The position numbers and the translations under genes were made by a program. 64,000 nucleotides of DNA, from contig JBAZSZ010000002.1 in NCBI GenBank assembly GCA_041662205.1, forward strand, positions 27,957 through 91,956. The letters run 5' to 3'. The notes beneath the pieces were generated by a model. That model had not been told where the DNA came from. It saw nothing but the letters and a program-made list of their open reading frames with translations, and ran no database searches. The stretch comes from Minisyncoccota bacterium (GTDB lineage Bacteria > Patescibacteriota > Minisyncoccia > Phycocordibacterales > UBA9973). This document shows, one piece after another, positions 758 to 54,217 of the stretch; the stretch's first letter is position 1, and each line of letters opens with the position of its first letter.

Positions 758-2089
758 TTACGCTGGCACGAAGGTTAAGGCTGTTCCCTTTTTGCCACTT
801 CGGCCAGTTCGGCCTATACGGTGCACGTAAGTGTCATAGGTTTGTGGCACGTCGTAGTTGATGACATGAGTAACATCTGGGATATCCAGCCCTCTTGCCG
901 CAACATCTGTAGCAATTAAGATATTTATTTGATCTTTCTTGAATGAATCTAAAATACGAATACGTTCTCGACTTCTTTTATCTCCATGAATTCCTCCAAC
1001 TTTAAAACCCATATGCCCAAGTTCTTTTGCTAGAGTATCCACACTATGTTTCATTTCTCTAAAAATTAAAACTTTATCTGAGCCGTCCTTTTTTAAAACT
1101 TCGTGCAATTTTTCTAATTTTTCTTCTTTTGTTTTCACTCGGATTACATCTTGATCAATATTTTTTGCTGTCTCACCAGAGATCACAGAAATAAAAACGG
1201 GTTTTTTCAAATATTGTTCTGTTAATTTCTTGATTTCTGGAGAAAGAGTCGCTGAAAAGAAAAGAGTTTGACGCTCCGCTGCGGTTTTTCCGATTATATA
1301 AACCATATCATCGCGAAATCCCATGTCGAGCATTCTGTCTGCTTCGTCGAGTACCACGGAATGACAAGTAGATAAATCTAAAACCTTTTTTTCAATCAAG
1401 TCCCGTAGACGCCCTGGAGTTCCGATAACAAAAGAAACTCCCATTTTTATTTCACGAATTTGTTTCATAATTGGTAAGCCTCCCACACAAGCTACTGAAA
1501 ACATTCCAAAACCAAAAGCAAAATTCTTAAAATCAGCTTCGATCTGGAGAGCGAGCTCACGAGTCGGCGCCATTATCAAAACTGTTTCTCTTTTACTCTG
1601 ACCTTTTGTCTTTGCGATTTTCTCAATTAAAGGCAAAAGAAATGCTGCGGTTTTACCTGTACCAGTGTTCGCCATACCGAAAACATCTTTGCCTTCTATT
1701 ACGGCATTCATGGCTTGATCTTGGATAGGACGTGGATTCGTAAACCCTGCTCTCTCAATATTTTTATGAAGCTGTGCATTAAAAGGAAAATCGGCAAAAG
1801 TGTGTTTTGCTACATATGGCTTTTCTTCCACATGCGTTCCTTTTTTAATGAAACGAGAAAAATCTATCCGTTCACCACGGGATCTTTTATTACTTGAAGG
1901 TCTCCCACCTCCAAAGCGAGGTCTAGAATTACTTCTAAATCCACCCGACTTACTAGAACTTGGTCTACTAAACTTCGCGCCAGAGCGAGAAGTACTGTGT
2001 GCAGAAGCCGAAGCTCCACGCACGAAACTGCGTTTGTTAATCATATATTTCTTTGTGTCATGGTAATCAATACCACGACATAAAGCCAT
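758..2089 (-). CDS. DEAD-box ATP-dependent RNA helicase carrying an N-terminal Arg/Ser/Gly-rich low-complexity extension
   Basis: Q-motif, Walker A (TGTGKTAAF), DEAD, SAT and HRIGRTGRSG motifs are all present. The first ~90 aa are an RS/RG-rich tract. The true start may be the internal Met in MINKR. Confidence 0.9.
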   Translation of the reverse strand: MALCRGIDYHDTKKYMINKRSFVRGASASAHSTSRSGAKFSRPSSSKSGGFRSNSRPRFGGGRPSSNKRSRGERIDFSRFIKKGTHVEEKPYVAKHTFADFPFNAQLHKNIERAGFTNPRPIQDQAMNAVIEGKDVFGMANTGTGKTAAFLLPLIEKIAKTKGQSKRETVLIMAPTRELALQIEADFKNFAFGFGMFSVACVGGLPIMKQIREIKMGVSFVIGTPGRLRDLIEKKVLDLSTCHSVVLDEADRMLDMGFRDDMVYIIGKTAAERQTLFFSATLSPEIKKLTEQYLKKPVFISVISGETAKNIDQDVIRVKTKEEKLEKLHEVLKKDGSDKVLIFREMKHSVDTLAKELGHMGFKVGGIHGDKRSRERIRILDSFKKDQINILIATDVAARGLDIPDVTHVINYDVPQTYDTYVHRIGRTGRSGKKGTALTFVPA

Positions 2090-3126: not shown

Positions 3127-3618
3127 ATGATCTCCCTCATTGCAGCCATTGGTAAAAATAATGAACTCGGCAAAGACAATACTTTGCTTTGGCATCTGCC
3201 TGCTGATATAAAATTTTTTAAAGAAACTACCACACTGCACCCAGTAATAATGGGCAGGAAAACTTTTGAATCCATAGGACGCCCCCTCCCCAACAGAAGA
3301 AATATCGTAATTACCAGGGATTTGAATTATAAAAAAGATGGGGTTGAGCTTGTATACTCCCTAGGCGAAGCTTTGGATTTATTCCCAGACCCAAACGAGG
3401 AAATATTTATTATCGGGGGCGCAGAATTATATAGACAAACAATGTCTATCGCAGATAAGCTTTATATCACTCACATAGACGCTGAAGACAAAGACGCAGA
3501 TGCATTTTTCCCTGAAATTATTCCAATTGTTTGGAACGAAGTCTCACACATTGAACACGAGGCAGATGAAAAGAATATTTTTAAATATACTTTTTCAATT
3601 TACGAAAAGTTTCAATAA
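3127..3618 (+). CDS. folA: Dihydrofolate reductase
   Basis: MISLIAAIGKNNELGKDNTLLWHLPADIKFFKETT...IMGRKTFESIG. It sits immediately downstream of thyA. Confidence 0.9.
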   Translation: MISLIAAIGKNNELGKDNTLLWHLPADIKFFKETTTLHPVIMGRKTFESIGRPLPNRRNIVITRDLNYKKDGVELVYSLGEALDLFPDPNEEIFIIGGAELYRQTMSIADKLYITHIDAEDKDADAFFPEIIPIVWNEVSHIEHEADEKNIFKYTFSIYEKFQ

Positions 3619-4462: not shown

Positions 4463-4484
4463 TTCTTAAATATACTCCCAAAAA

Positions 4485-4520
4485 CACAAAAAGCCAACAA
4501 CTTAATGTTGGCTTTTTTAT
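4485..4520. terminator. Bidirectional terminator downstream of rplK
   Basis: The hairpin agccaacaacttaatgttggct is flanked by an A-run and a T-run. Confidence 0.5.
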
Positions 4521-14475: not shown

Positions 14476-15216
14476 TTATTCTATAATCTTTTTAAACTCT
14501 TCTGGTATTGGAGATTCTATTTTTATAGTTTCACCTTTAAGATTCTTAAATTCTATAGATTTCGCGTGCAAAGCTAAGCGCGAGATGCCCTTGGGGCAAG
14601 GATTATCAGGATTATAGAGAGAATCACAAGCGACAGGGTGATTTAAGAATTTCATATGCACGCGGATCTGGTGCGTCCGGCCAGTTTTAGGTCTAACTTC
14701 AATATATGTAAAATTTCCAGACAGGAGCTTATGAAAATTTTTATCGGTGTGGGAACCCTTTAGGGAGGAACCGGAAAAATTTTCATAAGCTCCTGTTTTA
14801 AATCTTTTTAATACTCTATATTGAGTTATCGCCTCTCGCATTTCTCCACGCGCTCCACGACCAGCAGAATAACGTCGAAAGTCCTTTGGACTTCTCCCGA
14901 TAGGTTTATTTATTATCCCCCGTTCATTTTTTACATTTCCCGAAACAATAGCATGATAAATCTTTTTTATTTCTCTGTTCTTAAATTGACTCTTGAGAAA
15001 TTCATGAGCTTTTTTATTTTTAGCTATCAGCATTACACCAGAAGTTCCTTTGTCTAACCTATGCACTAATTCTGCTTTTGGATATTTTTTTACAGCCCAA
15101 TCTAAAATAGTTTTTTCCTTACTGGTTTTATCGGGGTGCACCAAAATCCCCGAAGGTTTATCTATGGCTAAAATATTAGTATCCTCATATAAAATTTTTA
15201 TTTTTTCTGGCATCAT
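14476..15216 (-). CDS. RluA-family pseudouridine synthase carrying an in-frame palindromic insertion
   Basis: HRLDKGTSGVMLIAKN has the catalytic Asp, and the C-terminal PKTGRTHQIRVH motif is present. Confidence 0.85.
   Translation of the reverse strand: MMPEKIKILYEDTNILAIDKPSGILVHPDKTSKEKTILDWAVKKYPKAELVHRLDKGTSGVMLIAKNKKAHEFLKSQFKNREIKKIYHAIVSGNVKNERGIINKPIGRSPKDFRRYSAGRGARGEMREAITQYRVLKRFKTGAYENFSGSSLKGSHTDKNFHKLLSGNFTYIEVRPKTGRTHQIRVHMKFLNHPVACDSLYNPDNPCPKGISRLALHAKSIEFKNLKGETIKIESPIPEEFKKIIE
14722..14795. repeat. 74-bp palindromic element inserted in frame in the pseudouridine synthase gene
   Basis: There are perfect 21-bp inverted repeats: caggagcttatgaaaattttt and aaaaattttcataagctcctg. 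They flank a 32-bp GC-rich core. The element encodes an extra peptide, GAYENFSGSSLKGSHTDKNFHKLL. Confidence 0.7.
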
Positions 15217-35483: not shown

Positions 35484-35496
35484 TATTCTCTAAATA

Positions 35497-35523
35497 AAAA
35501 AAGCCCCAAACGGGGCTTTTTTT
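35497..35523. terminator. Bidirectional rho-independent terminator
   Basis: aaaaaagccccaaacggggcttttttt. Confidence 0.6.
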
Positions 35524-35535
35524 ATTTATATATTT

Positions 35536-35814
35536 TTATTGAGTAAATTCTTCTCCCTTCGCCCACTTTTTTAATATATCATAATCAGTATCTCCGCAAA
35601 TAAATTTCTTCGTTTTTGTATTATAGAAAAAAGGAACTCCTCCGCACAATTCTCCGTTATCAATCTCGAGTAAACGCTTTTCATTTTCTTTATTGTGCCA
35701 AACTTCCAAACCTTCAATCTTTATCCCCTCCTCTTTTTCTAGACGTTCCACTAGCTCGTGCATATTTACGCAATGAGGGCATTCTGTTCCATAAAATTCA
35801 AGTAAATGATTCAT
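35536..35814 (-). CDS. Glutaredoxin/thioredoxin-like small redox protein
   Basis: CPHC active site within YGTECPHCVNM. Size is 92 aa. Confidence 0.7.
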   Translation of the reverse strand: MNHLLEFYGTECPHCVNMHELVERLEKEEGIKIEGLEVWHNKENEKRLLEIDNGELCGGVPFFYNTKTKKFICGDTDYDILKKWAKGEEFTQ

Positions 35815-35843
35815 AAAATTTAAAAGAAATTAGAATTTGTTGT

Positions 35844-35919
35844 TTAGAAAGCCTTGCGACCAGCTACCGAGCCGAGCAGTTCGCTGGCGTAATAACGCCA
35901 GATAGATTGCTTTATAAAT
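35844..35919 (-). repeat. GC-rich ~75-nt intergenic element, copy 1, 16 nt 3' of rpsT; candidate structured RNA or REP-like element
   Basis: Near-identical to 37691-37764. Hairpin ctggcg-taataa-cgccag and shared termini ttagaaagccttgcg / gatagattgctttataaat. Confidence 0.5.
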
Positions 35920-35935
35920 AACAAATTCGAATTTC

Positions 35936-36199
35936 TTACTTAACTAATTTTGATAAGCGAGATTTCTTACGAGCGGCGTTATTTTTCTTTATTACTCCTT
36001 TTTGCGCTGATTTATCGATAGCCTGAAAAGCGCTTGGGAGCATCTTTTTAGCTTCAGCTTTACCTGTTTCTTTATTTGTTTTAACAACTTTCTCGATTTT
36101 CTTGATTATTTCCTTCATCACCTTCTTGCGTTGGTCATTAAAAGCCTTCTTTCGAAGAGAACCACGAATTGCTTTTTTAGCTGATTGTGTTATTGGCAT
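35936..36199 (-). CDS. rpsT: 30S ribosomal protein S20
   Basis: MPITQSAKKAIRGSLRKKAFNDQRKK resembles the S20 N-terminus. Basic and all-alpha. Confidence 0.85.
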   Translation of the reverse strand: MPITQSAKKAIRGSLRKKAFNDQRKKVMKEIIKKIEKVVKTNKETGKAEAKKMLPSAFQAIDKSAQKGVIKKNNAARKKSRLSKLVK

Positions 36200-36252
36200 A
36201 TATGTAATATATCAAAAAACCCAAAAAAATGCAATTATGTTATGATTATTCT

Positions 36253-36819
36253 ATGATTGGAAGCATTAAGGGAAAAATTATATTAAAAACAGAAAAATTT
36301 TTAATTGTAGAAACTGGCGGAGTCGGCTATAAAATAAGTGTCTCGCCAGATATACTATCTAAGACAAAAAAAATAAATGAGGAAATATCCCTTTGGACAC
36401 ATACTCAAGTTCGCGAAGATGCTTTAGATTTGTATGGATTTTTGGAACGCCCAGAATTAGAATTTTTTGAATTGCTTTTGAATGTATCTGGTATAGGACC
36501 AAGATCAGCTTTAGCAATTTTAGGAATTGCTTCCATCGAAACGTTAAGAAAAGCAATAGGAACTGGAGACACCAGCTATCTCACAAAAATATCTGGAATC
36601 GGTAAAAAAACTGCAGAAAGAATTGTAATTGAATTACGTGATAAAATGGGAACAGAGTTAGAAGGAAGTTCCCTCCGTGAAGAATTAGATGCCTTAGAAG
36701 CACTGAAATCTCTCGGTTATTCTCAAAATGAGGCACGCGAAGCATTGAAAAAAGTTTCTCCTAATGTAAATACCAATACAAAAATACGTGAAGCGTTAAA
36801 AATTTTAGGTGGAAAATAA
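36253..36819 (+). CDS. ruvA: Holliday junction DNA helicase RuvA
   Basis: MIGSIKGKI...VETGGVGYKI is the RuvA N-terminus, with HhH motifs (VSGIGPRSA, ISGIGKKTAE). Start taken at the internal Met. Confidence 0.85.
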   Translation: MIGSIKGKIILKTEKFLIVETGGVGYKISVSPDILSKTKKINEEISLWTHTQVREDALDLYGFLERPELEFFELLLNVSGIGPRSALAILGIASIETLRKAIGTGDTSYLTKISGIGKKTAERIVIELRDKMGTELEGSSLREELDALEALKSLGYSQNEAREALKKVSPNVNTNTKIREALKILGGK

Positions 36820-36820
36820 A

Positions 36821-37672
36821 ATGCCTGAATTACCAGAAGTAGAAACGACAGTGCGAGGTCTTAAAAAGACTATAGTGAATCTTGTAATAAAAAACGTCTG
36901 TACTGACTTAGTAACAAAAGATAAGCGTAAACATGATAGTGTAGCCAACCCTAAATTTTTCAAAATTTTTAAAAAAGAAATTCTAAACAAAAGAATTCTA
37001 TCAATAGAAAGACGTGCTAAAAATATCCTAATAAACTTATCAGGAAATAAAACCATTTTGATTCACCTGAAGATGACTGGATATTTGTTTTATGGCAAAG
37101 ATCCAAAAATAAAATTTGCCCATGTTGTTTTTACACTCTCAAATAAACATTATTTAGTTTTTTCGGATATACGTAAATTTGGGAAAATCACTTTATTTGA
37201 TACTAAAATTGCGCATGATAGTAGACACTTAAACAATATCGGGCCAGAACCTCTTGATAAAAATTTTACTTTAAAAAAATTAGAAGAATGCTTAAATAAA
37301 AAACTAAACGGAAAGATTAAAACAGTTTTAATGGATCAAAGTGTTATTGCTGGTATTGGTAATATTTATTCGGATGAAATACTTTGGCGCGCTGGCGTGC
37401 ATCCAGAAAGAAAAGTTTCCAGTTTAAAAGAAAAAGAATTTAAATTAATTTTCAAAGCCATTAAAGAAACTCTAAAAAAAGGCATAGATTTCGGTGGAGA
37501 TTCAATGTCAGACTATAAAAATATTTACGGCTTGCCCGGTAAATTCCAACTACATCATGAAGCGTACAGACGCACTGGAGAAAAATGTCGAAAGAAAAAT
37601 TGTAAAGGAATAATAATAAGAAAAATAATAAACAGCCGCAGCGCGCACTTTTGCTATGTGCATCAGAAATAA
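36821..37672 (+). CDS. mutM: Formamidopyrimidine-DNA glycosylase
   Basis: The N-terminus MPELPEVET has the catalytic Pro2. There is an H2TH motif and a C-terminal zinc finger. Confidence 0.9.
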   Translation: MPELPEVETTVRGLKKTIVNLVIKNVCTDLVTKDKRKHDSVANPKFFKIFKKEILNKRILSIERRAKNILINLSGNKTILIHLKMTGYLFYGKDPKIKFAHVVFTLSNKHYLVFSDIRKFGKITLFDTKIAHDSRHLNNIGPEPLDKNFTLKKLEECLNKKLNGKIKTVLMDQSVIAGIGNIYSDEILWRAGVHPERKVSSLKEKEFKLIFKAIKETLKKGIDFGGDSMSDYKNIYGLPGKFQLHHEAYRRTGEKCRKKNCKGIIIRKIINSRSAHFCYVHQK

Positions 37673-37690
37673 AATAAGAAAATATAAAAT

Positions 37691-37764
37691 TTAGAAAGCC
37701 TTGCGCAGCCGGGTAGGCGAGCAGTTCGCTGGCGAAGCTTCGCCAGATAGATTGCTTTATAAAT
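37691..37764 (-). repeat. GC-rich ~75-nt intergenic element, copy 2, 30 nt 3' of the TrmH-family gene
   Basis: Hairpin ctggcgaagcttcgccag. The loop and stem differ from copy 1, but pairing is preserved. Confidence 0.5.
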
Positions 37765-37794
37765 TTTTATATTTTCTTATTTTAAATACTAAAA

Positions 37795-38274
37795 TTATAA
37801 AATCCCAAAAAGCGTTATCCCTAAAGCTACAGAAACATTTAGGGATTCTTTTTTGCCCCGCATGGGAATTTCAGCGATTATGTCGCATTTTTTAAGATTA
37901 ACTTTAGAAATTCCGGCTACCTCTTCCCCTACTAAAAATGCATTTTTATCTTTTATTTTTACTTTTTTATAATCAATAGAGTTTTTATTTTGCTCTATTC
38001 CAATAATCAAATATTTTTCTTTCTTTAATTTGGCTAAAAGTGGTGAAATATTTTTTTTCTGCTCCCAAGACACAAATTCTTCTGCCCCTAATGCTGATTT
38101 TGCTAAGTCTCCCCTTTTCCTCCCGAATCTATCCAGAGGCGTCGGTGTGTAACCCGTCAAATAGATCTTATCTATACCCGCCGCGTCAGCTGTCCGAAAC
38201 ATCGCTCCAACGTTCTCCACGCTTCGGATATTATGTAAGATTACTATATTCTCTTTTTGATTTTCTTTTTTCAT
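37795..38274 (-). CDS. SpoU/TrmH-family RNA 2'-O-methyltransferase
   Basis: SVENVGAMFRTADAAGIDKIYL...NVSVALGITLFG are the SPOUT motifs. Confidence 0.8.
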   Translation of the reverse strand: MKKENQKENIVILHNIRSVENVGAMFRTADAAGIDKIYLTGYTPTPLDRFGRKRGDLAKSALGAEEFVSWEQKKNISPLLAKLKKEKYLIIGIEQNKNSIDYKKVKIKDKNAFLVGEEVAGISKVNLKKCDIIAEIPMRGKKESLNVSVALGITLFGIL

Positions 38275-39504: not shown

Positions 39505-42156
39505 TTATCTTTTCAACACTCTTTTAAGATATTTTCCAGTATAACTCTTTGCATTGTTCGCTATTTCTTCAGGCGTACCTTTGGCAACAATCTTGCCTCC
39601 ATTTACTCCACCCTCTGGGCCAATGTCTATAATATAGTCGGAGCTTTTTACAATATCAAGATTATGTTCAATCAAAACGATAGTATTCCCATGAGATACT
39701 AATTTATTTAAAACTTCCAAAAGTTTTTGCACATCATCATAATGAAGCCCCACGGTCGGCTCATCTAAAAGATAAATTGTTTTTTCTAAATGCGGTCGAT
39801 AAAGCTCACTACTAATTTTTACCCGTTGCGCTTCCCCTCCAGAGAGCGTGGTAGCTGATTGTCCGAGCTCTAAATAACCAAGGCCTACATCAGATAGAGT
39901 TTGAAGCCTGTCAGAAATTGCGGGAATATCTTTAAAAAAGATTAACCCATTTTCTACAGTCATGTGTAACACTTCATAAATATTTTTTTTCTTATATTTT
40001 ACAGTAAGCGTCTCTTTGTCAAAACGTTTTCCATTACAAACATCACAAGTCACATAAACTGTGGGTAAAAAATGCATTTCAACGGCTATTTCCCCATTAC
40101 CCTCGCAAGCTTCACATCGTCCGCCTTTTACATTAAAAGAAAAACGATTCGCTTTCCAGCCTCGCAAACGAGCTTCTTCTGTAGAAGCAAAAAGGTCCCG
40201 AATGTGCGTAAAAGCACCAGTATAAGTGACAATGTTTGAGCGTGGGGTCCTGCCAATCGGCGACTGATCAATTAAAATGACTCTTGATAAATATTCAGTT
40301 CCAGAAAAAGAAGAACAATTAAATATTTTTGCCGTACGATATTTTCTTTCAAAACGGGCTTGAAGATTTTTATAAAGAATCTCATACATTAGAGAACTTT
40401 TTCCAGAACCAGAAACTCCAGTAATAGAGGTCATCACTCCGAGTGGCACTTCTACATTTAAATTATTTATATTAAAAATATTTCCGCCTACTATGCGAAG
40501 TACGCCTTTCGGATGGCGTCGCTTATTTGGAATTTCTATTCTAGTTTCATCCCGCAAGTAACTAAGCGTACGAGAATTATTCGTATTCTTTTTTGCAGTT
40601 AATAAATCTTCAAGATAACCAGAAACAATAACTTCTCCGCCGTGCACTCCAGCCTTAGGGCCGATATCCACTATAAAATCCGAAGCATAAATAGTATCTT
40701 CGTCGTGTTCTACAATTAAGATGGTATTACCAAGATCACGCAAGTTTTGAAGGGTTTTAATCAAGCGATCATTGTCTCTTTGATGAAGTCCGATAGTCGG
40801 CTCATCTAACACATAAAGCGCACCGACGAGCCTAGAGCCAAGCTGAGAAGCTAAGCGTATACGTTGCGCTTCTCCACCAGAGAGAGTGTTTGCCTTGCGA
40901 GATAATTGCAAATAATCTAAACCCACATCCAGCATAAATTGGAGCCTGGCTTCTATCTCCTTTACCACTGGCACAGATATTTCTTTCTCTTGTTCTGAAA
41001 GTTTTAAGTTTTTAAAAAAATCGTGCGCATCTTTTATGGAAAGAGAAGATAATTCTAAAATATTTACCTTCCCCGAAACCAGGTTTAGGGACTTTTGTTT
41101 TTTGCTATCTGCCCCTAAACCTGGTTTCGGGGAAATAGAAGAATACAAAAACACATTTAGCGCTTCAGGACGTAATCGCGCTCCATGACAAACTTCACAT
41201 GGTTCATCTCCCATAAAATATTTTGAACCAAGACCGTTACATTCCGGACAGGCACCATAAGGTGAATTAAAAGAAAATAATCTAGGCTCTACTTCTGGAA
41301 AAGAAAAACCATCATTCTTGCAAGCAAATTTTGATGACATTATAAACTCTTCAGCACCAATCTTTATAGCTACCAAACCATCTGATTCAAGAAGTGCCCG
41401 TTCTAGAGCTTCAGCAAGGCGCATTCTACTATTATCTTTATTATCTTCAAACTCATGTACTGCAAAATGATCAACAAGAATATCAATATTGTGAGCTTTG
41501 TTTTTTGAAAGAGTTATTTGTTCGCGAAGCTTTTTCATTACCCCATCAAGACGAATTTCTGCAAAACCTTTTCCAAGTAAATCATAAAGTAATTGATAAT
41601 ATTCGCCCTTTCGTCCGCGCACTATCGGGGAAAAAATACTTATTTCAGTTTCATCCCATTCTACTCCCATAACTTTTTTATTTTTCTTAGAATTTTTACC
41701 TAAGGTATTAATTTTTTCTAAAACAAAATTTAAAATTTCTTCGTTAGAAAGTTTTTTAATTTCCTCACCGCACAAAGGACAATGCGGGTGCCCAATGCGT
41801 GCATACATCACTCGCAGGTAATCATAGATTTCTGTAATCGTCGCCACTGTCGAGCGTGGATTGTTTGAACGAGATTTTTGGTCAATCGAAATTGCTGGTG
41901 AAAGACCTGTGATCTCATCCACGTTAGGCTTTGGCATTTGATTCAAAAATTGTCGAGCATAAGAAGAAAGAGATTCCACATATCGGCGTTGACCTTCAGC
42001 AAAAATGGTATCAAAAGCCAGAGACGATTTTCCGGAACCAGAAACCCCAGTAATGGCTATCATCTTGTTACGTGGCATTTCCAATGAAATATTCTTCAGA
42101 TTATGCGTCCGTGCCCCTTTAACTATTATTTTATCTATATTTTGTTGATTTTTCAT
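39505..42156 (-). CDS. uvrA: Excinuclease ABC subunit A
   Basis: Two ABC ATPase modules, zinc fingers ([25 protein letters not shown]) and conserved UvrA signatures throughout. Confidence 0.95.
41067..41136. repeat. ~70-bp palindromic element inserted in frame in uvrA
   Basis: Inverted repeats ttccccgaaaccaggtttaggg(ac) and (g)cccctaaacctggtttcggggaa flank a T-rich spacer. It encodes an extra [21 protein letters not shown] segment. E. coli UvrA has no such stretch after ARLRxEA. Confidence 0.65.
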
Positions 42157-43372: not shown

Positions 43373-45679
43373 CTATTTCTTTTCCAATTTCAAACGAAGT
43401 ACTCCAATTTCGTCTCTTAAGATCGCCGCTGTTTCAAAATCTAACTCTTTTACCGCTTTATTCATTTCTTTTTCCTTCATTTTAATTATTTTTTCGTAAA
43501 TTAAATTACCAATTTCTTCATCAGATAAATAAGACTGTCCAAGACTGGTGTTTGGTATTTTTTTATTAATTTTTTTATCTTTTTTAAATTCTTTCGCATA
43601 AGCCCGCTTGAAAACTTCTAGATCAAGCTTGAGTTCCGCATTCACCACTTTGCCATGCTCACTCTCCATTTCTTCAGTAATGTCTTTTATCTTTTTTATA
43701 ATTGTTTTCGGAGTAATGCCATGCTTTTTGTTATAAGCAAGCTGAATGTTTCTACGACGAGCAGTTTCCTTTAGAGCATAATCCATTGCTCCCGTCATGA
43801 TATCAGCATAGAGAATAACCTTTCCCTCACTATTGCGAGCTGCGCGACCAATAGTTTGGATTAAGGATGTTTCGGATCGTAAAAATCCAGCTTTATCAGC
43901 ATCCAAAATTCCAATCAGAGCAACTTCTGGCAAATCGAGCCCTTCACGCAACAGATTAACTCCGACCAAAACATCAAATTCTCCTTTTCGAAACTGAGTC
44001 AGAATTTTAATTCTATCCATCGTCTTTATATCACTATGTAAATATTCTGCTTTTATTTTTTTATCCTTCAGATAAACAGAAAGGTCTTCTGCCATTTTTT
44101 TTGTTAGTGTTGTAGCCAACACTCTGAAACCTTTTTTAATTGTTTTTTCTGTTTCACTTATAAAGTCTTGAATTTGACCAGGGTAGTGCTCAAGATGATG
44201 CTCAGAGGAGTATTCGCTACGACCAGAAAGAACTTTCCCTTCCAAGATAGAGTGCGAACGACGGCGAGTATCATCTTGAGCGCTACCTTCAGAAACGGGA
44301 CGAACTATGGTTTCTGGATCTACCAGTCCGGTTGGGCGAATTATTTGTTCTACTATTTGTTCGCTTTCTTTTCTTTCCACATCACTCGGGGTCGCACTCG
44401 TATAAATCACTGGACCAATTCGTTCTTGAAATTCCTTATATTTAAGTGGTCTATTGTCTTTGGCTGAAGGTAAACGAAAACCATATTCGACAAGAGTGTT
44501 TTTACGTGAAGCATCACCAGCGTACATTCCATTTAATTGAGGCAAAGTAACATGCGATTCATCAATAATGGTAAGGAAATCTGGAACATACTCAGAGGAG
44601 TATTCGCTACGACCAGAAAGAACTTTCCCTTCCAAGATAGAGTGCGAACGACGGCGAGCATGTTCCTGGTTTTCTACATGGGGGAAATAAGACAACAATG
44701 TCTCTGGCGGTTCACCTTCTTCTTTTCCAGATAAATGCCTAGAATAATTTTCTATCCCATTACAATATCCAACTTCTTTTATCATCGCTAAATCATAATT
44801 TGTCCTCCTTTTTATGCGCTCAGCTTCTAAAAGTTTTCCTTCTTTTTCAAATTTCTTTAACTGCTGTGCCAATTCTTTTTTAATTTCAATAAGCGCTTTT
44901 TTCTTTTTTACATCTTCTGTAATAAAATGCTTTGCTGGAAAAATAAAAATATTTTTTTCTTCTCTAATTATGCGCGAAGAAGTTGGATCAACTTTTGTTA
45001 TTTTTGAAATGCTCCCGCCAAGCATTTCAACCTGGTACATAACACTTTCAGACACTGGCATAAATTCTACCCGAGAACCAATAGAGCGAAAAGTTCCCGG
45101 ACTGAGGTCTGCATTAGTACGTTCAAAATAAATACTAATTAATTTTTTCATTAAAGTAAGGCGATCTATTTTCATTCCTATCTCAAGTTTTAAATTAACT
45201 TTTTCATATTCTTCTGGAGAACCCAAACCATAAATACAGGAAACTGAAGCTACTATTATCACATCCCGTCTTGTTAAAAGTGCTTGGGTGGAAGCATGAC
45301 GAAGCATATCTATTTCTTTATTTATAGATGCATCTTTCTCAATATAAGTATCTGAAGCGGGCACATAAGCTTCTGGTTGATAATAATCATAATAAGAAAC
45401 AAAATAATTCACCGCGGAATCTGGAAAAAATTCTCGAAACTCTTGCGCTAGCTGAGCGGCGAGAGTTTTGTTGTGGGCGATCACTAAAGTCGGTTTATTG
45501 TACTGCGCTATCACGTTCGCCATAGTAAAAGTCTTGCCTGTGCCTGTAGCTCCTAGGAGTGTCTGCTTCTTCATCCCCTTAGACAGGCCTTGCACTAATG
45601 CTGAAATAGCCTCGGGCTGATCTCCGGCAGGCTCAAAAGGTTTATGTAATTTAAAGATACTTCCTTGATTTTTCAACAT
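43373..45679 (-). CDS. uvrB: Excinuclease ABC subunit B, with two in-frame repeat insertions
   Basis: Conserved GDQPEAI, GATGTGKTFTMAN and DESH motifs plus a C-terminal UVR domain. At 768 aa it is longer than typical UvrB (~660-670 aa). Confidence 0.95.
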   Translation of the reverse strand: MLKNQGSIFKLHKPFEPAGDQPEAISALVQGLSKGMKKQTLLGATGTGKTFTMANVIAQYNKPTLVIAHNKTLAAQLAQEFREFFPDSAVNYFVSYYDYYQPEAYVPASDTYIEKDASINKEIDMLRHASTQALLTRRDVIIVASVSCIYGLGSPEEYEKVNLKLEIGMKIDRLTLMKKLISIYFERTNADLSPGTFRSIGSRVEFMPVSESVMYQVEMLGGSISKITKVDPTSSRIIREEKNIFIFPAKHFITEDVKKKKALIEIKKELAQQLKKFEKEGKLLEAERIKRRTNYDLAMIKEVGYCNGIENYSRHLSGKEEGEPPETLLSYFPHVENQEHARRRSHSILEGKVLSGRSEYSSEYVPDFLTIIDESHVTLPQLNGMYAGDASRKNTLVEYGFRLPSAKDNRPLKYKEFQERIGPVIYTSATPSDVERKESEQIVEQIIRPTGLVDPETIVRPVSEGSAQDDTRRRSHSILEGKVLSGRSEYSSEHHLEHYPGQIQDFISETEKTIKKGFRVLATTLTKKMAEDLSVYLKDKKIKAEYLHSDIKTMDRIKILTQFRKGEFDVLVGVNLLREGLDLPEVALIGILDADKAGFLRSETSLIQTIGRAARNSEGKVILYADIMTGAMDYALKETARRRNIQLAYNKKHGITPKTIIKKIKDITEEMESEHGKVVNAELKLDLEVFKRAYAKEFKKDKKINKKIPNTSLGQSYLSDEEIGNLIYEKIIKMKEKEMNKAVKELDFETAAILRDEIGVLRLKLEKK
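44191..44278. repeat. In-frame palindromic element in uvrB, copy A
   Basis: The 68-bp core (ctcagaggagtattcgctacgaccagaaagaactttcccttccaagatagagtgcgaacgacggcgag) is identical to 44591-44658. Its flanks caagatgatg / tatcatcttg are mutually inverted. It encodes RRRSHSILEGKVLSGRSEYSSE. Confidence 0.7.
44581..44669. repeat. In-frame palindromic element in uvrB, copy B
   Basis: Same 68-bp core. Its flanks ctggaacata / catgttcctgg are mutually inverted, but they differ from the copy A flanks. Confidence 0.7.
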
Positions 45680-53855: not shown

Positions 53856-53890
53856 TTGTTTATGCTCCTCGTTTGTCGAAATAAAAAAAG
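53856..53890 (+). promoter_or_regulatory. Copy c of the promoter-like motif (TTGTTT-atgCTCCTCGTTTgtcga-AATAAA)
   Basis: Shares 19 contiguous nt (ttgtttatgctcctcgttt) with copy a. Confidence 0.3.
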
Positions 53891-54217
53891 CATTAATCTC
53901 TAAACAATCCTTTCAGAGCTGAGCTCCAAAAGTAATAAAATATTATAGGATAGCCCCAGAAACTAATAAAAGCTCCAAAACGTCCTATGCAAATTCATAT
54001 AACCTATGGCTGATTGCTTAGAGATTAATGCCTTATTTAAATATCAATAAAAAACTTCTAACAATATTATACTATATGCTAAAGCAAGCAAATGCTATAA
54101 TGTTGATAGCTATGTTGATACCCTGTTGATAAATGTACTACATATACAACATAGCATATAAAAAAATTAATGTCAACCCCCATCATTAGTAAATGATAGA
54201 TTTAACAAAAAACCCTT

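What the first reader, a model, noticed from the sequence alone, without database searches (positions are those of the whole stretch)
35844..37764. A ~75-nt GC-rich intergenic element occurs twice with a covarying hairpin, always just 3' of minus-strand genes
Copy 1 (35844-35919) lies 16 nt after the rpsT stop, and copy 2 (37691-37764) lies 30 nt after the TrmH-family gene stop, both in minus-strand sense. The ends are nearly identical (ttagaaagccttgcg... and ...cagttcgctggcg-loop-cgccagatagattgctttataaat). The hairpin differs between copies while pairing is preserved: ctggcg-TAATAA-cgccag in copy 1 versus ctggcgAAGCTTcgccag in copy 2. The upstream ccagc/gctgg stem is also maintained. This covariation argues for a structured RNA, such as a 3'-UTR stability element, a small RNA or a REP-like element, rather than chance.
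Basis: seen in the sequence. Interest (0 to 1): 0.55.

Follow-up and report, generated by a model that had tools for sequence, protein, structure and literature searches.

The report
Interspersed branched-hairpin element of Nomurabacteria
The two GC-rich repeats belong to a previously undescribed family of about 100-137-nt branched hairpins scattered between genes in one group of ultra-small (CPR) bacteria; base-pair covariation strongly supports the fold, but its function is still unknown.

Summary
The repeat is real. Both copies sit where stated. Each is the tip of a longer hairpin of about 115 nt whose AT-rich outer stem differs between the copies but stays complementary. Collection scans plus model searches gave about 180 copies with both conserved blocks, about 150 of them distinct. 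The named genome hits are all Patescibacteria MAGs, mostly labelled Nomurabacteria or Paceibacterota. None was found in viral, phage or plasmid collections, in Rfam 15, or in the papers searched.

The fold is a long outer stem closed by a three-way junction. About 97% of pair cells are standard pairs, against 35-46% when partners are slid, and 29 of 31 pairs show compensatory changes. G·U greatly outnumbers A·C, and the forward RNA is more stable than its reverse complement in 147 of 149 copies.

Elements are gained and lost as whole units at gene junctions that otherwise abut or overlap. They occur in both orientations and in every type of intergenic region. Their unpaired core stays about 97% identical while neighbouring fourfold-degenerate codon positions are saturated.

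Function is unknown. My leading inference is a direction-specific RNA processing or insulator module. The rivals are a REP/MITE-like mobile element and a trans-acting RNA or ribozyme.

The parts
35824..35937 (+). Copy 1, the whole hairpin unit. It fills nearly all of the gap between orf92 (35536-35814, minus strand) and rpsT (35936-36199, minus strand), and its last pairs overlap the rpsT stop codon.
   Evidence: The minimum-free-energy fold is -43 kcal/mol with z = -7.9. The covariance model scores 91.2 bits on the + strand. The orthologous site is empty in L022, L042, L138 and L096.
35824..35847 (+). Copy 1, the 5' arm of the locus-specific AT-rich outer stem (aagaaattagaatttgttgtttag). It pairs with 35914-35937.
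   Evidence: All outer-stem pairs covary across the family.
35848..35913 (+). Copy 1, the conserved three-way-junction core. Its parts are P1 AAAGC (35848-35852) with GCUUU (35909-35913); P2 UUGC (35854-35857) with GCAG (35876-35879), carrying an atypical tip at 35858-35875; the J2/3 linker UUCG; P3 CUGGCGU-AAUA-ACGCCAG (35884-35901); and the J3/1 linker AUAGAUU (35902-35908).
   Evidence: Alignments A2 and A3 and the structure counts. The same tip variant is found at the orthologous copy L011:334-433.
35914..35937 (+). Copy 1, the 3' arm of the outer stem.
37670..37784 (+). Copy 2, the whole hairpin unit. It makes up nearly all of the spacer between the convergent genes fpg (36821-37672, plus strand) and SpoU methylase (37795-38274, minus strand). 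Its 5' arm starts at the fpg stop codon.
   Evidence: The fold is -44.1 kcal/mol with z = -5.8. The inverted arms 37670-37692 and 37762-37784 are 96% complementary. The model scores 101.5 bits on the + strand. The orthologous site in L098 has no spacer at all, and the two stop codons overlap there.
37695..37758 (+). Copy 2, the conserved core. Its parts are P1 at 37695-37699 with 37754-37758; P2 UUGC (37701-37704) with GCAG (37721-37724); the P2 tip hairpin GCC-GGGUA-GGC (37708-37718); P3 CUGGCGA-AGCU-UCGCCAG (37729-37746); and the J3/1 linker AUAGAUU (37747-37753).
   Evidence: Orthologous copies after fpg (L004, L005, L011, L040, L119 and others) keep P3 paired through multiple double substitutions.

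Best explanation
**What it is (shown).** The two copies belong to a lineage-specific family of self-contained structured modules embedded in intergenic DNA. All named genome hits are Patescibacteria MAGs, mostly labelled Nomurabacteria or Paceibacterota.
- Each unit is an imperfect hairpin of 100-137 nt.
- A 20-35-bp AT-rich outer stem differs from locus to locus but stays paired.
- The stem is closed by a GC-rich three-way junction whose unpaired nucleotides are almost invariant.
- P1 is AAAGC/GCUUU.
- P2 is UUGC/GCAG. It carries a G·A mismatch, a bulged A and a tip of variable length.
- P3 is a 7-bp helix with an A-N-C-N tetraloop.
- The fold is optimised on one strand only, which is the window's plus strand.
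- Units are gained and lost whole, and each copy is under purifying selection.

**How it works (inferred).**
- The active form is RNA, made whenever transcription crosses the element in that direction. The source would be read-through from an upstream gene or divergent transcription from a neighbour's promoter.
- The long double-stranded stem, together with the conserved junction, then acts in cis as a direction-specific signal for transcript ends or processing. The junction is presumably the docking site of a protein, and the stem is an RNase III-type substrate.
- The effect would be to insulate tightly packed genes from each other's transcripts.
- In the opposite direction the fold is about 8 kcal/mol weaker, so operon transcription could pass.
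- How new copies arise is not known.
For: **Structure**
- In 51 copies from genomes, 96.7% of pair cells are standard pairs, against 35-44% when partners are slid. Eighteen of 31 pairs show compensatory changes, and 0 of 500 shuffles reach the observed values.
- In 104 distinct metagenome copies retrieved with a different pattern, 97.0% of cells are paired and 29 of 31 pairs are compensatory. This includes P1, where A-U, U-A and G-C all occur.
- Mutual information over the cores recovers only these helices.

**One strand is favoured**
- G·U versus A·C is 51:14 in the genome set and 69:14 in the metagenome set. The genome count excludes the invariant U·G; the metagenome count also excludes the class-A G·U. 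G·U exceeds A·C in 20 pair columns against 2 in the metagenome set.
- One class-A pair toggles between G-C, G·U and A-U with almost no A·C.
- The forward RNA is more stable than its reverse complement in 145 of 149 cores and in 147 of 149 when 25 nt of flank is added on each side. The mean differences are -5.5 and -7.9 kcal/mol.

**Selection on each copy**
- Fourfold-degenerate third codon positions of the flanking fpg and spoU genes are only 21-53% identical between the window and its relatives (27-53% among relatives at 69% or higher protein identity).
- The conserved blocks of the orthologous elements are about 97% identical. This includes blocks the search patterns did not require and copies found only by the model.

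**Position**
- The element makes up essentially the whole spacer at junctions that are otherwise 0-10 nt long or overlapping. Examples are rpsT/orf92, rpsO/NYN, which shares an ATGA stop/start overlap when empty, and fpg/spoU, whose stop codons overlap in L098.
- In 84 of 137 scorable contexts (my tally of the tables), the forward element faces the 3' end of an oncoming gene.
- At the rpsO/NYN site it lies directly beside a symmetric TATAAT/ATTATA -10 element.
Against: - There are no expression data, so neither transcription nor the transcribed strand is shown.
- Neither copy is called as an intrinsic terminator. No U-tract consistently follows the hairpin: the T fraction in the next 8 nt is 0.32.
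- About a quarter of the metagenome copies lie between divergent genes. In L057 the element sits upstream of both promoters, which an insulator role does not obviously need.
- The orientation preferences are weak: 84 of 137 facing an oncoming gene, and 49 antisense versus 25 sense in tandem contexts. They are also inflated by orthologous, non-independent loci.
- A plain hairpin would not need about 25 invariant junction nucleotides, so the recognition partner I postulate is entirely inferred.
- G·T pairs are also tolerated in single-stranded DNA, so RNA is favoured but not proven.
- Truncated remnants and nested insertions look like mobile-element decay.
Confidence: 0.35

Rival explanations
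1. The element is a selfish, non-autonomous mobile element of the REP/REPIN, MITE or PATE kind. It is copied into intergenic DNA by an enzyme encoded elsewhere in the genome. That enzyme would recognise the folded junction on one strand, as single-stranded DNA or as an RNA intermediate. Any effect on neighbouring genes would be incidental.
For: - There are several copies per small genome, up to 5 exact-pattern matches per MAG.
- Whole units are present or absent at many orthologous sites. The window itself is empty at about 3605-3612 and 4482-4513, where the relative L071 carries copies.
- The distribution over tandem, convergent and divergent spacers (39, 17 and 17 in the metagenome set) shows no preference for gene 3' ends and is roughly what unbiased insertion would give.
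- Subfamilies exist with different outer stems and core types.
- The same junction can be occupied by different subfamilies. The SpoU site carries class B in the window and class D in L048.
- There are 5'-truncated remnants and a nested insertion.
- L143 keeps only a 16-nt remnant after a deletion.
Against: - The terminal inverted repeats are the variable part and the interior is the conserved part, which is the reverse of a transposase-driven MITE.
- No target-site duplication could be defined.
- No transposase, reverse transcriptase or HUH gene appears among the recurrent neighbours. No copy is split by an ORF.
- Orthologous copies are retained, with compensatory changes, across species whose fourfold-degenerate codon positions are saturated. 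This argues for selection on every copy rather than on a few master copies.
- Orientation shows no replication-strand bias in contexts where gene direction is neutral, 12 versus 13. IS200/IS605-type elements do show such a bias.
- The element is absent from the viral, phage and plasmid collections.
Confidence: 0.25
2. The elements are a family of independently expressed, trans-acting structured small RNAs, or a new small ribozyme. The three-way junction would be the functional centre, binding a protein or ligand or cleaving itself. The long stem would protect the RNA ends.
For: - Invariant junction and loop nucleotides sit beside freely covarying helices, and the peripheral P2 arm varies in length. 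It is a 4-bp tip, a conserved arm of about 50 nt, or that arm with a further 70-nt insertion. This is the pattern typical of aptamers and ribozymes.
- The fold is strand-specific, while orientation is independent of the neighbouring genes.
- Each copy is under purifying selection.
- At the rpsO/NYN site a -10-like TATTAT lies 3 nt upstream of the first hairpin nucleotide, so a start a few nucleotides inside the hairpin is plausible.
Against: - No -10-like motif sits at a fixed distance from the hairpin base. Counts in the critical interval are 24 for the forward orientation and 23 for the reverse-complement control.
- There is no terminator tail.
- Rfam ribozyme and small-RNA models give nothing, even at E = 10.
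- The hammerhead-like string CUGACGA is not conserved. Its U and A belong to a covarying pair.
- No pseudoknot or loop-loop covariation was found.
Confidence: 0.2
3. The element would be a minus-sense 3'-UTR stability element or intrinsic terminator serving rpsT and the SpoU/TrmH gene.
For: - Both window copies follow minus-strand stop codons, by 16 and 30 nt.
- In the genome set, 37 of 50 copies have a gene ending against their 3' side.
- The genes that end there include highly expressed ones: S15 nine times, S20, and ATP synthase.
Against: - In minus sense the wobble pairs become A·C mismatches, and the RNA is about 8 kcal/mol less stable in 147 of 149 copies.
- In the independent metagenome set the four gene contexts are about equally frequent, including divergent promoter gaps.
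- There is no U-tract.
- The genome uses canonical terminators elsewhere, for example at 35491-35528.
Confidence: 0.08

Closest known systems
REP/BIME elements and REPINs of Enterobacteria and Pseudomonas
   Same: Both are interspersed extragenic imperfect palindromes that occupy spacers between genes in either orientation and fold as hairpins. In both, copies are gained and lost between relatives. REP elements are known to affect the stability of upstream mRNA and to act as barriers within operons; that statement rests on established knowledge and was not tested here.
   Different: - REPs are 20-40 nt, are present in hundreds of copies, and are defined by a short conserved palindrome with a GTAG-type motif recognised by a RAYT transposase. 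A REPIN is a symmetric inverted doublet.
- Here the unit is 100-137 nt and copy number is low.
- The tip is an asymmetric three-way junction, and the P2 and P3 sequences are unrelated to each other.
- No RAYT-like gene was seen near any copy.
Correia (Neisseria) and ERIC/IRU (Enterobacteria) MITE-like repeats
   Same: Both are elements of about 100-150 nt that fold as long hairpins when transcribed, insert at gene junctions, and come in subfamilies with internal insertions or deletions. From the literature, not tested here, Correia and ERIC can carry promoters and be cut by RNase III or RNase E, with orientation-dependent effects.
   Different: - In Correia and ERIC the terminal inverted repeats are the conserved part, and a TA duplication marks each insertion.
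- Here the termini vary with compensatory changes, the interior junction is conserved, and no duplication could be defined.
Phage T7-type intercistronic RNase III processing hairpins
   Same: Both are long irregular hairpins placed exactly between cistrons. The double-stranded stem would be the processing determinant and would leave a protective 3' hairpin.
   Different: T7 sites are simple bulged hairpins in a fixed sense orientation and have no conserved branched tip. RNase III cleavage of this element has not been tested.
Small junction-type ribozymes and aptamers (hammerhead, twister-sister, purine riboswitch)
   Same: Both have three-way-junction architecture, invariant junction nucleotides and covarying helices with a variable-length peripheral arm. 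The ribozymes also show multi-copy, orientation-independent dispersal.
   Different: No Rfam model matches. The hammerhead core CUGANGA...GAAA is not present as conserved sequence. The element has no fixed position upstream of genes, as a riboswitch would.

Membership tests
Any Rfam 15 family | A covariance-model match at or near the family's gathering score | tested here: not met
   The whole window at gathering thresholds gives only 6 tRNAs. Permissive scans of both copies, of long-type copies and of type-2 copies give only chance-level hits far below the gathering scores.
Intrinsic (Rho-independent) terminator | A GC-rich stem immediately followed by a U-tract on the transcribed strand | tested here: not met
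   The terminator scan calls the canonical site at 35491-35528 but neither element. After the full hairpins, the T fraction in the next 8 nt is 0.32, and the corresponding value on the other strand is 0.375. The base of the hairpin is AT-rich.
REP / REPIN | Extragenic, interspersed, imperfectly palindromic repeats | tested here: met
REP / REPIN | A short (20-40 nt) unit, or a symmetric inverted doublet of such units | tested here: not met
   The unit is 100-137 nt. The two inner hairpins, P2 and P3, are unrelated in sequence.
REP / REPIN | A cognate RAYT (IS200-like Y1/HUH) gene in the genome, often flanked by REPs | tested here: inconclusive
   None appears among the recurrent gene clusters within 8-14 kb of about 170 copies. 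Whole genomes could not be scanned.
MITE (for example Correia or ERIC) | Presence/absence polymorphism of the whole unit at orthologous sites | tested here: met
   Empty sites were found at the rpsT/orf92, rpsO/NYN and fpg/spoU junctions, and in the window at about 3605-3612 and 4482-4513.
MITE (for example Correia or ERIC) | Terminal inverted repeats conserved in sequence across the family | tested here: not met
   Outer stems differ completely between classes and change by compensatory substitution. All 11 outer-stem pairs have changes on both sides.
MITE (for example Correia or ERIC) | A target-site duplication flanking the insertion | tested here: inconclusive
   The best filled/empty pairs have only 83-87% flank identity, and no clear duplication is visible.
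IS200/IS605-derived PATE | Orientation tied to the direction of replication, with the active strand on the lagging-strand template | tested here: not met
   GC skew simply follows local gene orientation. In convergent and divergent contexts the split is 12 versus 13.
Hammerhead ribozyme | The conserved core CUGANGA ... GAAA ... UH around three helices | tested here: not met
   CUGACGA occurs in some copies only. Its U and A belong to a covarying pair (U-A, G-C and C-G all occur). GAAA is not at the required junction, and there is no Rfam hit.
Kink-turn | A 3-nt bulge followed by tandem sheared G·A and A·G pairs | tested here: not met
   The non-bulged strand (NGCC-GA-GCAG) fits. On the other strand, however, position 2b is a G that forms a covarying Watson-Crick pair in the P2 tip helix.
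   Both orientations and all intergenic types occur. The fold is optimised on the opposite strand.
Integron attC site | R''/L''...L'/R' boxes (RYYYAAC...GTTRRRY) in co-oriented arrays that separate gene cassettes | tested here: not met
   No such boxes are visible in the aligned copies. The copies are solitary and lie among housekeeping genes.

The most novel reading that the evidence does not exclude
The conserved three-way junction would be the active centre of a new functional RNA class. It would be either a small self-processing ribozyme or a high-affinity docking site for a CPR-specific protein. The element would propagate as a portable unit through the intergenic junctions of ultra-compact Patescibacteria genomes. 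In other words, it would be a domesticated, mobile structured-RNA gene rather than a passive repeat.
Probability: 0.12. Interest if true: 0.85.

Novelty: new variant of a known kind. Interest (0 to 1): 0.62.

Why it matters
Candidate Phyla Radiation bacteria have tiny, tightly packed genomes in which neighbouring genes often overlap. I found no published description of their non-coding RNA repertoire in the papers searched.

A 100-137-nt element kept under purifying selection at many gene junctions is therefore conspicuous. It comes with a fully covariation-supported fold, a clear strand preference and about 25 invariant unpaired nucleotides.

If it is a direction-specific insulator or processing site, it would show how these organisms separate transcription units without conventional terminators. 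If the junction binds a protein or is catalytic, it is a new RNA class with an unusually well-defined consensus that can go straight into biochemical tests. At the least, it is a new family that could be added to RNA and repeat databases and that marks a specific CPR lineage.

Tried and rejected
- **Known RNA families.** Four Rfam scans found nothing.
  - SRP, 5S, 6S and Y RNA were considered on size and shape and rejected: there is no model hit and the branching is wrong.
  - The hammerhead resemblance (CUGACGAG) was rejected because those positions covary as a helix.
  - An alternative CAG-UUCG-CUG hairpin was rejected because it conflicts with the strongly covarying P3.
  - A kink-turn in P2 was rejected because position 2b is Watson-Crick paired.
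It is not conserved in the family.
- **An own promoter.** No -10-like hexamer peaks at a fixed distance from the core or from the hairpin base. Forward and reverse-complement controls are equal.
- **A conserved 'tattatagcagat' upstream of some copies.** This turned out to be the TATAAT promoter of the neighbouring leaderless NYN gene on the other strand.
- **An intrinsic terminator.** It is not called by the scan and has no U-tract.
- **Replication-strand bias.** An apparent 40:13 skew bias disappears in contexts where gene direction is neutral.
- **Genome-specific P3 sequences** (concerted evolution or co-evolution with a trans factor). Suggestive cases were seen in the JANPIZ and JBAZSF assemblies, but overall the effect is not significant, with 437 of 2000 permutations at least as extreme.
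- **Pseudoknots or loop-loop contacts.** Mutual information recovers only the nested helices.
- **An autonomous parent element.** No left and right halves are separated by an ORF, and the neighbours are housekeeping genes.
- **Phage, plasmid or viral origin.** No matches.
- **Literature.** Five searches found nothing relevant.
- **Source organism.** An exact look-up of the Fpg protein returned only a 1.1-kb contig.
- **Target-site duplication.** It could not be defined, because the closest filled/empty pairs share only about 85% identity.
Full report
**1. The observation**

They share three identical blocks: TTTAGAAAGCCTTGCG, GAGCAGTTCGCTGGCG and CGCCAGATAGATTGCTTTATAAAT. The 18-mer CGCCAGATAGATTGCTTT occurs twice, against 0.10 expected by chance.

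- an unannotated 92-aa ORF at 35536-35814 (minus strand);
- rpsT at 35936-36199 (minus);
- ruvA;
- fpg at 36821-37672 (plus);
- a SpoU-family methylase at 37795-38274 (minus).

The real units are hairpins of about 115 nt, at 35824-35937 and 37670-37784. Their folding z-scores are -5.4 to -7.9. A full covariance-model search with filters off finds only these two copies in the window.

Between the two copies alone, covariation amounts to one swapped closing pair. The proposed ccagc/gctgg stem is not supported by the family.

**2. The family**

- A two-block pattern scan of one genome per species returned 52 stretches, 49 of them genuine. All genuine hits are Patescibacteria MAGs, mostly labelled Nomurabacteria or Paceibacterota, with up to five matches per MAG.
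Some contig names indicate groundwater samples.
- A covariance model (R1) found further copies that the patterns had missed.
- There are no matches in viral contigs, phage genomes or plasmids, in Rfam 15, or in the searchable literature.

**3. Structure**

The consensus has these parts:
- **Outer stem.** It has at least 11 aligned pairs, often 20-35 bp in all, and its sequence is specific to each class of copies.
- **Mismatch.** A conserved G·A mismatch separates the outer stem from P1.
- **P1.** AAAGC pairs with GCUUU.
- **P2.** UUGC pairs with GCAG. P2 also contains a G·A mismatch, a C-G pair that covaries to U-A, a bulged A, and a tip hairpin (GGCN-GACG-NGCC).
- **J2/3 linker.** UUCG.
- **P3.** A 7-bp helix with an A-N-C-N tetraloop.
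- **J3/1 linker.** AUAGAUU.

| Measure | 51 genome copies | 104 distinct metagenome copies |
|---|---|---|
| Pair cells forming standard pairs | 96.7% | 97.0% |
| Same measure with partners slid | 35-44% | 35-46% |
| Pairs with compensatory changes | 18 of 31 | 29 of 31, including P1 |
| Shuffles reaching the observed values | 0 of 500 | 0 of 500 |

Mutual information over the cores recovers only these helices and gives no sign of a pseudoknot.

Several subtypes exist:
- **Long type.** It is 136-137 nt, and the P2 tip is replaced by a conserved AU-rich arm of about 50 nt with its own covarying apical hairpin.
- **Nested insertion.** One copy carries a further insertion of about 70 nt in that arm.
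- **Types 2 and 3.** These keep only the P2 module and the A-N-C-N loop.
- **Remnants.** Some copies are truncated at the 5' end.

**4. Which strand folds**

- G·U pairs outnumber A·C mismatches 51:14 in the genome set and 69:14 in the metagenome set. The genome count sets aside the invariant U·G; the metagenome count also sets aside the class-A G·U. G·U exceeds A·C in 20 pair columns against 2 in the metagenome set.
- One class-A pair toggles between G-C, G·U and A-U with almost no A·C.
- In fixed windows, the forward RNA is more stable than its reverse complement in 145 of 149 cores (mean -5.5 kcal/mol). With 25 nt of flank on each side it is more stable in 147 of 149 (mean -7.9 kcal/mol).

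The fold is therefore selected on one strand. In the window that strand is the plus strand. It is antisense to rpsT, orf92 and the SpoU gene, and sense only to fpg. Single-stranded DNA cannot be formally excluded, but conserved wobble pairs favour RNA.

**5. Genomic behaviour**

*Orientation and context.* These figures come from crude ORF calls.

| Context of the element | Genome set | Metagenome set |
|---|---|---|
| Tandem genes, element antisense | 24 | 25 |
| Convergent genes | 12 | 17 |
| Tandem genes, element sense | 11 | 14 |
| Divergent genes | 3 | 17 |

- One divergent case was checked by eye. In L057 the element lies between two leaderless-type promoters that point away from it or start downstream of it.
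- An apparent bias with GC skew is explained by local gene orientation. In contexts where gene direction is neutral the split is 12 versus 13.

*Gain and loss.* Whole units are present or absent at orthologous junctions.
- rpsT/orf92 is empty in L022, L042, L138 and L096.
- rpsO/NYN is empty in L099, L135 and L139, where the two genes share an ATGA stop/start overlap. In L143 the site is reduced to a 16-nt remnant.
- fpg/spoU is empty in L098, where the two stop codons overlap.
- The window itself is empty at about 3605-3612 and 4482-4513, where the relative L071 (83-87% identity) carries copies.

The unit of gain and loss is the whole hairpin including its outer stem. No target duplication could be defined.

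*Neighbours.* The neighbouring genes are housekeeping genes: S15, S20, the NYN nuclease, Fpg, SpoU, ATP synthase, DnaK, RecA, FtsK, ComEC and SSB. No transposase or reverse transcriptase recurs among them.

**6. Selection**

Between the window and its relatives, fourfold-degenerate third codon positions of the flanking fpg and spoU genes are only 21-53% identical, which means they are saturated. Among relatives at 69% or higher protein identity the range is 27-53%.

The conserved blocks of the orthologous elements are about 97% identical. This includes blocks the search patterns did not require and copies found only by the model. Orthologous P3 helices differ by up to four fully compensated pairs.

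Each copy is therefore maintained. Decay of neutral relics is excluded, although gene conversion between copies cannot be ruled out. A test for genome-specific P3 sequences was not significant.

**7. Interpretation**

*Shown:* this is a real, lineage-specific, interspersed branched-hairpin element. Its fold is strand-specific, each copy is under purifying selection, and whole units turn over between relatives.

*Inferred:* the active form is RNA. The conserved junction is a specific recognition site or catalytic centre, and the long stem is a double-strand determinant.

My leading model, at about 0.35 confidence, is a direction-specific, cis-acting signal for transcript ends or processing that insulates abutting genes. 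In its favour:
- the element supplies the entire spacer at junctions that are otherwise absent;
- by my tally, it faces the 3' end of an oncoming gene in 84 of 137 contexts;
- it sits beside a symmetric -10 element at the rpsO/NYN junction;
- it folds about 8 kcal/mol less well in the opposite direction.

Against it:
- there is no U-tract and no terminator call;
- many copies lie in divergent contexts;
- there are no expression data;
- a simple barrier would have no need for about 25 invariant nucleotides.

The rivals are these:
- **REP/MITE-like selfish element (0.25).** This is supported by the turnover, the subfamilies and the remnants. It is weakened by the variable termini, by selection on every copy and by the absence of a candidate mobilising gene.
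- **Trans-acting small RNA or ribozyme (0.20).** This fits the conservation pattern. It is weakened by the lack of any promoter or terminator signature.

**8. Comparison and novelty**

The closest known kinds are REP/BIME-REPIN elements, Correia and ERIC repeats, T7-type RNase III sites and junction-type ribozymes. The element fails at least one defining feature of each; the membership table gives the details.

I class it as a new variant of a known kind, namely the interspersed structured extragenic element. I could find no earlier description of it in the resources available here. Its value lies in an unusually clean consensus that can be tested directly, in a poorly explored bacterial radiation.

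Noticed in passing
window:14710-14807: A 22-bp perfect inverted repeat (ACAGGAGCTTATGAAAATTTTT / AAAAATTTTCATAAGCTCCTGT) surrounds a GC-richer centre of about 35 nt. It lies inside the 246-aa ORF 14476-15216 (minus strand). It is unrelated in sequence to the element studied and gave a weak 16.9-bit hit to model R1 only because it is a hairpin.
   Followed up: partly
window:53554-54217 (hairpin 53882-54039): A 660-nt gene-free gap contains a long hairpin with 28-nt arms, 89% complementary and 102 nt apart. There is no Rfam match at gathering score. It could be another unannotated structured RNA.
   Followed up: no
window:41069-41134: A perfect 22-nt inverted repeat (TTCCCCGAAACCAGGTTTAGGG / CCCTAAACCTGGTTTCGGGGAA) lies inside the 883-aa ORF 39505-42156 (minus strand).
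   Followed up: no
window:44182-44287 and 44588-44668: An 81-nt direct repeat is present at 44198-44278 and 44588-44668, with 94% identity. The first copy is overlapped by a 22-nt inverted repeat.
   Followed up: no
window:28390-29119: Tandem repeats of about 245 nt with 79-99% identity between units. They are probably a repetitive coding region.
   Followed up: no
window:3605-3612 and 4482-4513: These are empty sites. The related contig L071 (83-87% identical flanks) carries a class-A copy (L071:4736-4833) and a type-2 copy (L071:3744-3841) at exactly these junctions.
   Followed up: yes
L023, L015, L050 (NYN gene start) and L057:4811-4860: A TATAAT-like hexamer ends 6 nt before the ATG of the gene next to the element. 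This suggests leaderless mRNAs in these bacteria. At the rpsO/NYN junction the hexamer is symmetric (TATAAT/ATTATA) and belongs to the DNA that is absent from empty sites.
   Followed up: partly
L139:~6661 and L098:~300: Where the element is absent, neighbouring genes have no spacer at all. rpsO and NYN share an ATGA stop/start overlap, and the stop codons of the convergent fpg and spoU genes overlap.
   Followed up: yes
window:35491-35528: A canonical bidirectional intrinsic terminator (AAAAAAAGCCCC-AAAC-GGGGCTTTTTTT) lies between the cold-shock gene and orf92. The genome therefore does use ordinary terminators.
   Followed up: yes
L133:~1660-1900 (minus strand): A long-type copy carries an extra insertion of about 70 nt at the base of the P2 arm. 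L102, L104 and L112 hold 5'-truncated copies that begin inside the P2 arm.
   Followed up: partly
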